Position numbers and translations under genes: made by a program. Below, one piece after another: positions 22,973-25,143 of a stretch of 27,437 nucleotides of DNA. Every line of letters begins with the position of its first letter. Within the stretch, counting starts at the first letter, position 1. Location of the stretch: positions 1-27,437 of the IMG/VR virus record IMGVR_UViG_2548876964_000024; one strand, given 5' to 3'. This DNA is from a virus (Duplodnaviria; Heunggongvirae; Uroviricota; Caudoviricetes). The notes beneath the pieces were generated by a model. It saw only the letters and a list, made by a program, of their open reading frames with translations, was not told the origin of the DNA and did not search any database.

Positions 22973-23021
22973 TTGCAACCATGTGAATTATTTCTCTGGT
23001 AACTAAAATGTATGAGTTTAA

Positions 23022-23047
23022 TTGATATGGGTCAAAGATTTTGACCA
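23022..23047. promoter_or_regulatory. Overlapping palindromes upstream of cargo gene A (putative operator)
   Basis: GGTCAAA-GAT-TTTGACC (23022-23038) overlapping ACCAT-TGC-ATGGT (23035-23047), about 75 nt upstream of the 23119 start. Confidence 0.35.
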
Positions 23048-23118
23048 TTGCATGGTGAAACTTTATGCTACAAAATGTTATTTTAAGGCGTTTTATCTGT
23101 GGCAGGAGATAGTTAATC

Positions 23119-23469
23119 ATGTCATCTGAACATGTTCGTAAAGGTGTAACAAATGCGAAATTCAATGAAGAGCAATCTAATATTCTCTTTATTGAAATAG
23201 GAATTCTGTCAATACTGATAGGTTTAATGTCTAAATCATGGTGGGCCTTTGGCGGTTCTTTTCTTGGACTGATTTTTAGTTTAAGAATAAAATTTCTGGC
23301 AATACCATTGATGATTGTATTTAGCTTAGTATGGGGAGCTATTGGCTATAGTATTGGTACTTTGTTTGAATCAACAGCAGCAAGTATTGTTTTGGGGGTA
23401 ATTGCTTTCCTGAGTGGTTTGGGTACTCATTTTGCTGCCGTGCAATGGGCAAATGATATTGCAGAATAA
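23119..23469 (+). CDS. Small polytopic inner-membrane protein (cargo gene A), 116 aa
   Basis: ATG after GGCAGGAGATAG; three to four hydrophobic helices; AT-rich codon usage distinct from flanking phage genes. Confidence 0.55.
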   Translation: MSSEHVRKGVTNAKFNEEQSNILFIEIGILSILIGLMSKSWWAFGGSFLGLIFSLRIKFLAIPLMIVFSLVWGAIGYSIGTLFESTAASIVLGVIAFLSGLGTHFAAVQWANDIAE

Positions 23470-23491
23470 TTACAGATAAGAAGCGAAAAGA

Positions 23492-23968
23492 ATGAATATG
23501 AGATGGTTTTTATTATTTGTATCGTTAGTTTCAGCAGGAACATTTGCAAAAATAGATCCTCTACAATGGAATGTAATTGAAGAGAGAGGGGGGAGAGAAT
23601 ATACAATCCATAATCATAATGGTGATAAGATAAGTTTTTTATGTGATATGGGATTCATGTATGGTTCACCAGATAGTGCAGGTAGTTTAGGCTTGTTGCT
23701 AAGTTCGTCGAATAATAAAAAAGAGTATAATGCTGACAAGAATAAAATAGTATTAACTATAGATGGTGAGCAATATCCTTTTAGCAATCTTGGATCAATG
23801 GTTGGAGATTCTTGGTGGTATGCCTTTTGGCAAGATGCAGCAGATTCAAATGCTAATGCGATCGATGCTTATGTTGATAATGAAAAAATTGCCACATTTC
23901 CTCTTTCTGGGCTAAGTAAATTATATCAACAAGCTAAAAACGATGGATGCTTAAAGCGCGGCGATTAA
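23492..23968 (+). CDS. Secreted/periplasmic protein with Sec signal peptide (cargo gene B), 158 aa
   Basis: N-terminal MNMRWFLLFVSLVSAGTFA signal peptide (A-x-A-type cleavage site likely after TFA); AT-rich. Confidence 0.55.
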   Translation: MNMRWFLLFVSLVSAGTFAKIDPLQWNVIEERGGREYTIHNHNGDKISFLCDMGFMYGSPDSAGSLGLLLSSSNNKKEYNADKNKIVLTIDGEQYPFSNLGSMVGDSWWYAFWQDAADSNANAIDAYVDNEKIATFPLSGLSKLYQQAKNDGCLKRGD

Positions 23969-23987
23969 TTTTATTGCAAATTTAACG

Positions 23988-24012
23988 TAACCCATAAAGC
24001 GATTATGGGTTA
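23988..24012. terminator. 10-bp stem-loop between convergent cargo genes (putative bidirectional terminator, no clear U-tract)
   Basis: TAACCCATAA-AGCGA-TTATGGGTTA. Confidence 0.35.
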
Positions 24013-24019
24013 CAAAATA

Positions 24020-24913
24020 TTAAGATGTTGTGTTATAACAGTCTGTTTCTTCAAAGCAATGGGTCAGGTTATTGATCACAGGTTCTCCTTTCTCGTGTCT
24101 GAGAATAAGAGAGCCTCCATTAGTAGACCATTTATCTGAAACAGCAACAAAATTACAGAAGCAGCTACTCCCTGAAATTTCTCTTGCAATTCTTATAAAA
24201 TGAAATGCTCTAACTTCGAGACCTGGAACAATTTGTCCAAGACATTCTCTCATTGAATCTTCATCAAAGTCTCCATTTATTATTCCTGAACAGATAAACT
24301 CATAATAATTAAGAACGAAGAACATATCATTACCTGCTGATATGTATTTATCATGGACCTTTTTATCTTTTAAATCTTTATCATTTGGGATAAGTCTTTG
24401 TTTGGCAATAATTTCATTTATGGTTTTTCTAAGCCCGAACGTATTCGCTACCGATGAGACTTTTTTGTGAAATAATTCACTGTTTCTTTGATTCATTAGT
24501 GTATTTAAGGTGTGTGATTTTCTTGCGGCTACTTTACTCACAGTAGCCTGAACCCACCACCCAGAACCAAGTAGCACAGAACTTATAAGTAAAGCAATTG
24601 TGGATTGGTATACATCACCATATAAATAATATAATATAAATACACTATATAGCGTTACACCAAAGATTAAAGCTATAATGGTAATCCCATCGTTTGTTTC
24701 TGGGTATTTTTTTGCTATCTTTTCCTTTATCGTTATGCTGATAAAGGCGGAGAAGAACGCAAACATTAAGAATGGTAAAACTTCATCGAGAGAAAAAGAT
24801 AATGTTTTCTTGATAATATCTTCTCGAGATTCAAATATCATGAAAAAAAGTAATGAGAGAAAAAAAGTTAAGTGAGTATATTTATGTTTTATGTATTTCT
24901 GTAAAGAATGCAT
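24020..24913 (-). CDS. Membrane-anchored protein: N-terminal 3-4 TM helices plus about 160-aa cytoplasmic domain of unknown function (cargo gene C), 297 aa
   Basis: Long AT-rich ORF convergent with genes A/B; hydrophobic N-terminal third; no recognisable catalytic motif. Confidence 0.55.
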   Translation of the reverse strand: MHSLQKYIKHKYTHLTFFLSLLFFMIFESREDIIKKTLSFSLDEVLPFLMFAFFSAFISITIKEKIAKKYPETNDGITIIALIFGVTLYSVFILYYLYGDVYQSTIALLISSVLLGSGWWVQATVSKVAARKSHTLNTLMNQRNSELFHKKVSSVANTFGLRKTINEIIAKQRLIPNDKDLKDKKVHDKYISAGNDMFFVLNYYEFICSGIINGDFDEDSMRECLGQIVPGLEVRAFHFIRIAREISGSSCFCNFVAVSDKWSTNGGSLILRHEKGEPVINNLTHCFEETDCYNTTS

Positions 24914-24923
24914 TTTAAATCCT

Positions 24924-24960
24924 AAAAAAATACGCCCATTAAAGGGCGTTTTATTGTTTT
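24924..24960. terminator. Bidirectional terminator-like hairpin (A7 - ACGCCC-ATTAAA-GGGCGT - T-rich) at edge of cargo module
   Basis: Stem 24932-24937 / 24944-24949 flanked by A-run upstream and TTTTATTGTTTT downstream; 19 nt from the gene C start codon. Confidence 0.5.
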
Positions 24961-24990
24961 ACTCAAAACAACCTGACTCAAAACAACCTG
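24961..24990 (+). repeat. Perfect 15-bp tandem duplication ACTCAAAACAACCTG x2
   Basis: Identical adjacent copies at 24961-24975 and 24976-24990. Confidence 0.9.
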
Positions 24991-25102
24991 ATTGTGTGAT
25001 AACCATATGATACTCCTCATTCCATCTACACTACCTACTCTAACTTAATGATACCATATTACTCCCGGACGGCAATATTCCCACTCAATGGACAAATGAC
25101 TA

Positions 25103-25137
25103 CTCGTAGAATCGGGTAACACGCCAGATTCTACGAG
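25103..25137 (+). promoter_or_regulatory. Perfect 11-bp inverted repeat (CTCGTAGAATC-N13-GATTCTACGAG) sequestering the SD of the downstream gene
   Basis: Right arm contains GAGG 7 nt before ATG 25144. Confidence 0.5.
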
Positions 25138-25143
25138 GTTTCA

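What the first reader, a model, noticed from the sequence alone, without database searches (positions are those of the whole stretch)
22980..25140. Insulated AT-rich three-gene cargo module (membrane protein + periplasmic protein, convergent membrane-anchored protein) at the immI-tail boundary where P1 carries sim
Between the immI promoter and the resumption of virion genes lies about 2 kb of markedly lower GC than the flanking backbone (by eye; not computed). It encodes a small polytopic membrane protein (23119-23469), a signal-peptide protein (23492-23968) and, convergently, a 297-aa protein with 3-4 N-terminal TM helices and a soluble domain I cannot assign to any family. The module is bracketed by palindromes (23022-23047), a 10-bp stem-loop (23988-24012), a terminator-like hairpin (24924-24960), a 15-bp tandem duplication and an 11-bp inverted repeat. 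In P1 this position holds the sim superinfection-exclusion genes, but the gene sizes and strand layout here do not match my recollection of sim. A membrane/periplasmic pair plus a membrane-anchored effector is a typical layout for superinfection exclusion or abortive-infection systems. This is the best candidate in the window for an undescribed accessory or defence system.
Basis: partly seen in the sequence, partly recalled or inferred. Interest (0 to 1): 0.7.

Follow-up and report, generated by a model that had tools for sequence, protein, structure and literature searches.

The report
Mosaic envelope-protein cargo at P1 sim hotspot
The low-GC stretch in this P1-like phage-plasmid is real and sits where phage P1 keeps its sim (superinfection-exclusion) genes, but it is a patchwork of independently swapped, uncharacterised membrane and periplasmic protein genes that probably keep other phages out, not one three-gene system.

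Summary
Window 22936-24931 has GC 0.330 against 0.473 elsewhere (6.7 sd below any other 2-kb window). It carries three real genes between the immI genes (C4 RNA, icd, ant) and pmgC, exactly where P1 has simABC. None is homologous to SimA/B/C or to any PADLOC defence model. A is a 116-aa protein with about four transmembrane (TM) helices. B is a secreted 158-aa YfjT/YkfB-family (PF27224) beta-sandwich protein with a conserved cysteine pair. C has four TM helices plus a cytoplasmic DUF4760 (PF15956) domain.

The "insulated three-gene module" reading fails. In PLSDB, C occurs in 30 plasmids (5 without A) and A+B in 52 (27 with an SH3 protein in place of C), and the window is itself a recombinant. 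C's relatives are solo genes at the edges of a P4-like satellite, prophages and islands. Divergent YfjT-like genes (25-39% identical to B) sit directly upstream of pmgC in at least six P1-like lineages. Several "bracketing" features are P1 backbone. The sim region is already published as a low-GC variable region.

Best reading: lysogen-expressed envelope proteins acting in superinfection exclusion or phage resistance. That function is inferred and untested.

The parts
22676..22763 (-). C4 antisense RNA of the immI region. This is left-flank backbone that fixes the locus identity. An isrK-like element follows at 22808-22886.
   Evidence: Rfam RF01695, 76.7 bits against a gathering score of 45, E 1.4e-14. 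isrK RF01394 scores 58.5 bits.
22956..22972 (-). C1-operator-like site (GTTGCTCTAATTATTTT), at the position equivalent to P1 Op51/Oc4, which controls the c4 promoters.
   Evidence: 3 mismatches to the consensus ATTGCTCTAATAAATTT. There are 5 sites in the window against 0.16 expected.
23029..23069 (+). Palindrome TGGTCAAAgatTTTGACCA (23029-23047), read as two back-to-back TTGACC -35 hexamers. The rightward promoter-like site is TTGACC-17-TATGCT (23041-23069), pointing at A-B. The leftward site is TTGACC-17-TACATT (23035-23007), pointing towards c4.
   Evidence: Consensus scan and the sequence itself. The layout parallels the divergent P2c4/PsimA promoters of P1. Consensus-level evidence only.
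23119..23469 (+). Gene A: a 116-aa small inner-membrane protein with about 4 hydrophobic helices and no family assignment (PHROG 15014, unknown function).
   Evidence: ORF. Hydropathy. Homologues at 58-72% identity. No Pfam, NCBIfam or PADLOC hit. PHROG match. AGGAG lies 10 nt upstream of the ATG.
23492..23968 (+). Gene B: a 158-aa secreted YfjT/YkfB-family protein (PF27224). It has an N-terminal signal-peptide-like segment ending ...GTFA|K, invariant C51 and W109 and near-invariant C153 (a probable disulfide), and a beta-sandwich-plus-helix fold.
23987..24013 (.). Hairpin with an 11-bp perfect stem between the convergent stops of B and C. It probably terminates C, since the T-richer tail is on the minus strand, and weakly terminates A-B. 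It travels with the C cassette.
   Evidence: Homology with the A+B+SH3 variant L014 ends at 23962, before the hairpin, whereas L017 shares 23788-25500.
24020..24913 (-). Gene C: a 297-aa inner-membrane protein with four predicted TM helices (about 14-33, 44-62, 76-94, 104-124) and an all-helical DUF4760 domain predicted to be cytoplasmic. Invariant motifs are GWWVQ, R..HT.N..M.QRNS..F, NYYEFI and D..C.
   Evidence: Pfam PF15956, E 6.4e-14, 52.7 bits against a cutoff of 25. All 20 family members match it. Alignment A1. AF2 pLDDT 81.9. Hydropathy and K/R distribution. AGGA lies 7 nt before the ATG.
24932..24949 (.). Bidirectional intrinsic-terminator hairpin ACGCCCATTAAAGGGCGT. This is P1 backbone, the terminator that follows simC in P1. 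It insulates the late pmgC-tub-pmgB-sit operon from lysogenic transcription of the cargo, and it also lies between C and its only promoter-like site.
   Evidence: Terminator scan on both strands. Identical in P1 and in the sim-type plasmid L015.
24961..24990 (.). Exact 15-bp tandem duplication (ACTCAAAACAACCTG x2). P1 and L015 have a single copy, and the duplication is seen only in C-bearing variants.
   Evidence: and alignment A4.
25039..25075 (-). A 23-bp insertion (25039-25061) found only in C-bearing variants. It supplies the extended -10 (TGgTATCAT, 25056-25048) of a leftward promoter-like site whose -35 is TTGCCG (25075-25070). This is the candidate promoter of C.
   Evidence: Promoter scan, 9 of 12 matches with a TG extension. 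Alignment A4 shows the insertion in the window and L017 but not in P1 or L015. Inference only.
25092..25143 (+). Universal right boundary of the variable region, at the start of the LPsit late-promoter region. It includes the conserved inverted repeat at 25103-25137, and pmgC starts at 25144. All of this is backbone.
   Evidence: P7, L014, L016 and L008 all regain homology at 25091/25092. LPsit coordinates are transferred from the P1 annotation. The inverted repeat is conserved in P1.

Best explanation
This is the sim-locus variable region of a P1-like phage-plasmid. It is identical to p08_4347-1 of E. coli O111:H8. The region is filled with low-GC cargo made of at least two independently exchangeable cassettes.

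Cassette 1 is the rightward A-B pair. It is probably transcribed in the lysogen from a sigma-70 promoter divergent from the c4 promoter. It makes a small 4-TM inner-membrane protein and a secreted, disulfide-stabilised YfjT/YkfB-family beta-sandwich protein.

Cassette 2 is the leftward solo gene C, a 4-TM inner-membrane protein whose DUF4760 helical domain faces the cytoplasm.

The most likely function is superinfection exclusion or phage resistance at the cell envelope. B would act in the periplasm as a non-homologous stand-in for SimC, blocking a step between adsorption and DNA arrival in the cytoplasm. C would act at the inner face of the membrane, either blocking DNA translocation or triggering abortive infection.

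Shown: the position, composition, architectures, family memberships, separability of the cassettes, and recurrence in mobile elements. Inferred: expression in the lysogen, protein topology, and the anti-phage function.

The confidence of 0.5 is for the whole statement including the function. The architectural part alone is about 0.9.
For: Locus identity: C4 RNA, icd and ant lie on the left and pmgC, tub and pmgB on the right. P1 carries simABC at the same place.

Foreign origin: GC 0.330 against 0.473, and GC3 about 0.25 against about 0.5.

Hotspot: other P1-like plasmids carry simB+simC, a lipoprotein plus DUF5384, A+B plus an SH3 protein, a long SimA plus a YfjT-like gene, mcr-1/ISApl1, TnpB or IS1 at this place. 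The literature lists it as variable region 4 with low G+C (PMC9603915). Every protein cargo I translated from this locus carries a signal peptide, a lipobox or TM segments (read from the sequences).

Separability:
- Junctions fall at 23962, 23788 and 25092, and L017 carries a 93-bp duplication scar.
- C is in 30 PLSDB records: 25 with A+B, 5 without A.
- A+B is in 52 records: 25 with C, 27 with the SH3 gene.
- The window's A-B is 98.0-98.2% identical to the SH3-type records but 96.9% to the other A+B+C records, while its C is 99.6-99.9% identical to theirs.

B family: divergent YfjT-like genes, 25-39% identical to B, lie immediately upstream of pmgC in the window, L017, L008, L035, phage Ro157c2YLVW and Cronobacter phage JK004.

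C family: solo genes at cargo positions.
- After the alpha primase of a P4-like satellite.
- Between the lysis genes and the integrase of Pseudomonas prophages.
- Next to integrases.
- At the end of the phage Riah genome.
- Beside AAA_21+RloB, Mrr nucleases, exonucleases, an Xre antitoxin and a PD-(D/E)XK nuclease.

Established knowledge (my own, not checked here): P1 Sim is a processed periplasmic protein that blocks infection after adsorption (Kliem and Dreiseikelmann 1989; Maillou and Dreiseikelmann 1990).
Against: - No experiment and no homology links A, B or C to any characterised exclusion or defence protein. PADLOC gives 0 hits, hhalign against SimB/SimC gives probability below 1%, and there is no informative structural neighbour.
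- Context is not uniformly defensive. The Haemophilus homologue L022 lies between housekeeping genes, and A's homologue L010 lies among metabolic genes.
- No neighbourhood baseline was computed, so the defence-gene association is qualitative.
- C's only promoter-like site lies upstream of a strong hairpin terminator, so its expression in the lysogen is unproven.
- Location in a hotspot does not prove function. The same site also accepts mcr-1 and IS elements.
Confidence: 0.5

Rival explanations
1. A, B and C form one co-functional three-gene system: a membrane and periplasmic sensor pair plus a convergent membrane-anchored effector, bracketed and insulated by palindromes.
For: The three genes are adjacent in 25 PLSDB plasmids and 41 complete E. 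coli genomes. They share a similar low GC. Their convergent layout with a shared hairpin could couple their expression.
Against: The PLSDB counts show the genes separate freely (C in 30 records, 5 without A; A+B in 52, 27 with an SH3 gene instead of C). The window itself combines A-B and C alleles of different ancestry. All C homologues outside P1-like elements stand alone, with no A- or B-like neighbour. YfjT-like genes occur with other partners or without A. A homologues occur without a YfjT gene. The right-hand 'bracket' is P1 backbone.
Confidence: 0.07
2. C is an abortive-infection effector or toxin rather than an entry blocker. The cytoplasmic DUF4760 domain senses a phage product, and the four TM helices oligomerise to depolarise the membrane. 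Read-through A-B transcripts, which are antisense to C, together with the upstream terminator would keep C low until infection.
For: - The sensor-like soluble domain is predicted to be cytoplasmic, with strongly conserved membrane-proximal motifs.
- C is a solo gene that sits among nucleases, toxin-antitoxin parts and an AbiL-like AAA_21+RloB pair.
- The hairpin between B and C lacks a T-run on the plus strand, so A-B transcripts may run antisense through C as far as the terminator at 24932.
- A terminator lies between C and its only promoter-like site, which suggests tight control.
Against: There is no homology to any known Abi or pore-forming effector. Nothing is known about toxicity. The gene is intact and 99.1-99.9% identical in 26 of the 30 PLSDB records that carry it, which neither supports nor excludes toxicity. 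This rival is a sub-case of the best explanation's function for C, not of its architecture.
Confidence: 0.2
3. The cargo is not anti-phage. It provides lysogenic-conversion or host-fitness functions in the envelope, such as immunity to membrane-active bacteriocins (A resembles small polytopic immunity proteins in size and topology), host interaction or stress tolerance. Alternatively it is nearly neutral hitch-hiking DNA.
For: - The same hotspot accepts mcr-1 and IS elements.
- Some A and C homologues lie in ordinary chromosomal contexts.
- The K-12 namesake gene yfjT has no reported function in the papers found.
Against: - There is no similarity to colicin or microcin immunity, adhesin or LPS-modification families.
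- The position is the one P1 uses for exclusion genes.
- The YfjT-like slot is retained but highly divergent across at least six P1-like lineages, which fits an arms-race role better than neutrality.
- C recurs at classic accessory-gene positions of prophages and satellites.
Confidence: 0.2

Closest known systems
P1 simABC (SimC superinfection-exclusion protein)
   Same: The genomic slot is identical, between c4/icd/ant and the LPsit-pmgC late operon. The rightward genes are divergent from the c4 promoters, the same terminator is retained downstream, and the products are secreted or envelope proteins.
   Different: There is no sequence or profile similarity of A, B or C to SimA, SimB or SimC. 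Gene sizes differ. One gene (C) is on the opposite strand and its soluble domain is predicted to be cytoplasmic.
YfjT/YkfB family (PF27224), named after genes of the E. coli K-12 cryptic prophages CP4-57 and CP4-6
   Same: B is a member by the precomputed Pfam hit and by RefSeq naming. The family shares a length of about 155 aa, a signal peptide and the conserved Cys pair.
   Different: The family has no known function. B is only 25-39% identical to other members. Its link to the P1 sim slot has not been described in the literature I searched.
DUF4760 (PF15956) proteins of phages and prophages
   Same: Residues 120-262 of C match above the gathering score. PHROGs 21275, 8946 and 2284 also match, all of unknown function.
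   Different: By my recollection of the Pfam entry, typical members are about 150-190 aa with one N-terminal helix. C and its 22 close relatives add three further TM helices. No member has been characterised: only one paper in the library mentions the name at all.
Inner-membrane superinfection-exclusion proteins such as T4 Imm, P22 SieA and HK97 gp15 (from my own knowledge)
   Same: These are prophage- or phage-encoded small polytopic inner-membrane proteins, made by the resident phage, that stop incoming DNA at the membrane. This is the working analogy for A and C.
   Different: No homology was detected. C has a large conserved cytoplasmic domain that those proteins lack. The analogy is functional only and is untested.
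Accessory and defence hotspots of P2 phages and P4 satellites (Rousset et al. 2022, from my own knowledge)
   Same: These are fixed backbone positions where unrelated low-GC anti-phage cargo is swapped. One C homologue sits at the cargo end of a P4-like satellite.
   Different: Here the hotspot is in a P1-like phage-plasmid. The cargo is dominated by envelope proteins rather than cytoplasmic nucleases or NTPases, and none matches a PADLOC model.

Membership tests
P1 Sim superinfection-exclusion locus (simA/simB/simC) | Genomic position between the immI c4 promoter region and the LPsit/pmgC late operon | tested here: met
   P1 annotation and flank homology. C4 RNA at 22676-22763.
P1 Sim superinfection-exclusion locus (simA/simB/simC) | Sequence homology to SimC (or to SimA or SimB) | tested here: not met
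   All-against-all blastp at E<=1 finds no A/B/C-Sim pair. hhalign of the B profile against SimC and SimB, and of the C profile against SimC, gives probability below 1%.
P1 Sim superinfection-exclusion locus (simA/simB/simC) | Effector exported to the periplasm through a cleaved signal peptide | tested here: inconclusive
   B has a hydrophobic N-terminus ending GTFA|K. All 13 family members have such a segment, and the AF2 model is disordered over residues 1-20. No dedicated signal-peptide predictor or experiment was available.
P1 Sim superinfection-exclusion locus (simA/simB/simC) | Blocks P1 infection after adsorption | not testable with these tools
   Needs plating-efficiency, adsorption and DNA-entry assays.
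DUF4760 (Pfam PF15956) | Match to the family HMM above the gathering score | tested here: met
   C scores 52.7 bits against a cutoff of 25, E 6.4e-14, over residues 120-262. All 20 aligned homologues match.
YfjT/YkfB family (Pfam PF27224) | Match to the family HMM, plus the shared signal peptide and conserved Cys pair | tested here: met
   Precomputed PF27224 on P0024, which is 97% identical to B, and on relatives in L008 and L035. RefSeq names identical-locus proteins 'YfjT/YkfB family phage-associated protein'. C51 is invariant and C153 near-invariant. The local Pfam copy lacks this model, so the test is indirect.
Known anti-phage defence systems (PADLOC-DB v2.0.0) | Any component HMM match | tested here: not met
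   0 families for A, B and C at E<=1.
Single co-functional three-gene system (A+B+C) | The genes co-occur as a conserved unit across replicons and taxa | tested here: not met
   C occurs without A in 5 of 30 plasmids and A+B without C in 27 of 52. C is solo in a satellite, prophages and islands. A and YfjT-like genes have other partners or none.
Membrane abortive-infection or exclusion effectors (RexB, AbiZ, Imm, SieA, gp15 type) | Homology to a characterised member, or a demonstrated membrane or entry phenotype | tested here: not met
   Homology: there are no Pfam, NCBIfam or PADLOC hits other than DUF4760, and no specific structural neighbour in PDB or BFVD. The phenotype cannot be tested with these tools.

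The most novel reading that the evidence does not exclude
Two uncharacterised protein families are new phage-exclusion determinants.

(i) The 4-TM DUF4760 proteins would be a single-gene, membrane-anchored anti-phage module, acting by entry block or abortive infection. It is shared by P1-like phage-plasmids, a P4-like satellite, and Pseudomonas and E. coli prophages.

(ii) The YfjT/YkfB periplasmic proteins would be the widespread, fast-diverging counterpart of SimC that gates DNA entry in P1-like phages. That would also give a first function to the K-12 y-genes yfjT and ykfB.
Probability: 0.35. Interest if true: 0.65.

Novelty: new variant of a known kind. Interest (0 to 1): 0.42.

Why it matters
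Phage-plasmids of the P1 type are common in clinical and animal E. coli. In this survey 83 of 5,426 complete genomes carry these particular cassettes. Exclusion genes carried by such elements could affect which phages and transducing particles can enter a lysogen.

The sim slot was already known to vary, but what replaces sim was not described. If B or C block phages, they would add non-homologous envelope-level mechanisms to a field dominated by cytoplasmic nucleic-acid-targeting systems. They would also assign functions to DUF4760 and to the K-12 y-genes yfjT and ykfB.

The locus gives a natural mix-and-match series for dissecting which gene does what: A+B+C, A+B+SH3, long SimA+YfjT2+C, and stacked YfjT paralogues. 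If they do nothing against phages, this is ordinary accessory cargo in a known hotspot.

Tried and rejected
- **Homology to SimA/B/C.** Rejected by blastp and hhalign.
- **Known defence systems.** PADLOC gave no hit.
- **Function from families.** Pfam, NCBIfam and PHROGs gave only DUF4760 and unknown-function PHROGs.
- **Literature.** Searches for DUF4760, yfjT, the RefSeq accessions, and sim or superinfection-exclusion work found no characterisation. One search failed on a term that was too short.
- **Regulatory RNA in the module or in C's leader.** No Rfam family matched inside the module. The leader fold is only modestly better than shuffles (z -2.2) and keeps the terminator hairpin.
- **Pooled neighbourhood scan of 128 ORFs around 12 C-family loci.** It showed a mix of defence-like and housekeeping genes. 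Without a baseline I treat it as qualitative only.
- **Context of P0014 (Citrobacter).** It could not be retrieved.
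Full report
**1. Observation**

The window is a P1-like phage-plasmid. The module is 100% identical to plasmid p08_4347-1 of E. 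coli O111:H8. Window 22936-24931 has GC 0.330 against 0.473 for the rest. The 215 other 2-kb windows have mean 0.471, sd 0.021 and minimum 0.437. GC3 is 0.23-0.27 for the three ORFs against 0.48-0.53 for pmgC, tub and ant.

The ORFs are at the stated coordinates. The small features are all present:
- a palindrome at 23029-23047;
- an 11-bp-stem hairpin at 23987-24013;
- a G+C-rich hairpin at 24932-24949;
- an exact 15-bp tandem duplication at 24961-24990;
- an inverted repeat at 25103-25137.

The left flank holds the C4 antisense RNA (Rfam, 76.7 bits), icd and ant. The right flank holds pmgC, tub and pmgB. P1 carries simA-simB-simC at exactly this position.

**2. Boundaries**

Pairwise blastn against P1 and five variant plasmids gives the following:
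- Homology with P1 and the sim-type plasmid L015 resumes at 24932/24911.
- P7, L014, L016 and the Salmonella element L008 all resume at 25091/25092, where the LPsit late-promoter region starts.

So 25092 is the universal right edge of the variable region. The stretch 24932-25091, with the terminator hairpin, is retained P1 backbone (alignment A4). The inverted repeat at 25103-25137 is also conserved in P1.

The palindrome at 23029-23047 consists of two back-to-back TTGACC hexamers. These serve promoter-like sites that point rightwards at A-B (TTGACC-17-TATGCT) and leftwards towards c4, mirroring the divergent PsimA/P2c4 promoters of P1. A C1-operator-like site lies at 22956-22972.

**3. The proteins**

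*A* (116 aa) has about four hydrophobic helices and no family beyond the unknown-function PHROG 15014.

*C* (297 aa) matches DUF4760 above threshold. It has only 22 other homologues of the same architecture among 5.8 billion clusters. Its invariant motifs, GWWVQ, R..HT.N..M.QRNS..F and NYYEFI, lie at and just after the fourth TM helix.

The model of C (pLDDT 81.9) is all-helical. The K/R distribution (N-terminus, loop 63-75, and the segment after TM4) places the DUF4760 domain in the cytoplasm. That topology is an inference. No solved or viral structure gives a functional lead.

None of the three resembles SimA, SimB or SimC or any PADLOC model.

**4. Not one system**

In PLSDB the genes separate as follows:

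| Cassette | Records | Of which |
|---|---|---|
| C | 30 | 25 with A+B, 5 without A |
| complete A+B | 52 | 25 with C, 27 with a 344-aa TM+SH3 protein in C's place |

The SH3-type arrangement is shown in L014. The window's A-B allele is closer to the SH3-type plasmids (98.0-98.2%) than to the other A+B+C plasmids (96.9%), while its C is 99.6-99.9% identical to theirs. The window is therefore itself a recombinant.

Other arrangements at the locus:
- L017 carries a long SimA-like protein (215 aa), a second YfjT-like gene, a 56-codon remnant of B, and C. It also has a 93-bp duplicate of 25092-25184 as a recombination scar.
- L040 stacks the long SimA, YfjT2, B and C.
- The Salmonella L008 has A plus a 28%-identical YfjT-like gene and no C.
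- A homologues also occur alone, or after a DUF4431 gene.

**5. Recurrence**

YfjT-like genes 25-39% identical to B lie directly upstream of pmgC in at least six P1-like lineages. These are the window, L017, L008, L035, phage Ro157c2YLVW and Cronobacter phage JK004. The slot is conserved but the sequences diverge fast.

C-family genes are solo genes at cargo positions:
- after the alpha primase of a P4-like satellite in Erwinia;
- between the lysis genes and the integrase in Pseudomonas prophages;
- next to integrases in L018, L019 and phage phi467;
- at the end of the phage Riah genome.

Their neighbours include AAA_21+RloB, Mrr nucleases, exonucleases, an Xre antitoxin, a PD-(D/E)XK nuclease and a D12 methylase. 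One locus, Haemophilus L022, is purely housekeeping. No baseline was computed, so this association is qualitative.

**6. Mechanism**

Every protein cargo I translated from this hotspot is a secreted, lipoprotein or membrane protein (read from the sequences). This covers SimB, SimC, long SimA, the YfjT-like proteins, the lipoprotein with DUF5384, the TM+SH3 protein, A and C. P1's own occupant is a periplasmic exclusion protein (my own knowledge).

The best-supported reading is that the lysogen expresses these genes to exclude or resist incoming phages at the envelope. B would act in the periplasm as an analogue of SimC. C would act at the cytoplasmic face of the inner membrane, as either an entry block or an abortive-infection trigger. 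I put about 0.45-0.5 on an anti-phage role for at least one of them. The architectural conclusions are much firmer.

C's expression is unresolved. Its only promoter-like site is at 25075-25048. The extended -10 of that site lies in a 23-bp insertion found only in C-bearing variants, and the site is upstream of the terminator hairpin. A-B read-through would be antisense to C.

**7. Novelty**

The hotspot and its low GC are published (PMC9603915). The cargo families have names (DUF4760, YfjT/YkfB) but no function, and I found no paper that characterises them.

This is a new variant of a known kind, namely prophage accessory or exclusion cargo in a known hotspot, and not a new three-gene defence system. 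Interest is moderate. It gives a concrete, cheap experimental lead for two unknown families, but it carries no functional evidence so far.

Noticed in passing
window 27155-27437 (pmgB ORF 26347-27213): An IS3-family IS1203/IS629-type element is inserted in the 3' end of pmgB. The pmgB ORF is 288 aa here, whereas the gene is 882 bp in P1, and its last codons come from the IS end. In the source plasmid the IS separates pmgB from sit, so this prophage may be defective in morphogenesis.
   Followed up: partly
L002 4681-4839 (P1 simA) against L017 1309-1956 and L008 4234-4902: The 52-aa SimA of P1 aligns with the N-terminus of 215-222-aa secreted proteins found at the same locus in other P1-like elements (93% and 56% identity over about 40 residues). 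P1 simA therefore looks like a truncated remnant of a longer gene.
   Followed up: partly
H59 NZ_MH844525.1 and H61 MF510496.1 (same locus in other P1-like plasmids): mcr-1 with ISApl1 is annotated inside the matched ant-to-pmgB stretch of some P1-like plasmids, and TnpB or IS1 in others. The exact insertion point was not mapped.
   Followed up: no
L017 2501-2593 and L040 (NZ_CP077484.1): L017 carries a 93-bp duplicate of the LPsit/pmgC-start region (window 25092-25184) upstream of the B remnant, which is a recombination scar. L040 stacks two YfjT-family paralogues in tandem ahead of C. Together they suggest cassettes are added by recombination at the 25092 junction.
   Followed up: partly
window 21015-22403: The continuous 462-aa ant ORF is annotated in the source record as two partial pseudogenes: a KilAC-type antirepressor lacking its N-terminus and an Ant lacking its C-terminus. 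It appears to be a chimeric antirepressor. The c4 region (22595-22980) is also unlike that of P1, and 22800-22887 matches phage D6, which suggests a different immI specificity.
   Followed up: no
window 22808-22886: An isrK-like Hfq-binding RNA match (58.5 bits against a gathering score of 50) lies just upstream of C4 on the minus strand and overlaps the weak c4-a1b1 target match. ORFs called in 22677-22931 are probably spurious.
   Followed up: no
window 915-942, 5471-5487, 20921-20937: Further C1-operator matches with 0-2 mismatches, including an overlapping divergent pair at 915-942.
   Followed up: no
L019 13459-15475: The Pseudomonas island that has a C homologue at its edge also encodes an AAA_21 ATPase plus an RloB protein (an AbiL-like pair) and a DUF3800 protein.
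   Followed up: no
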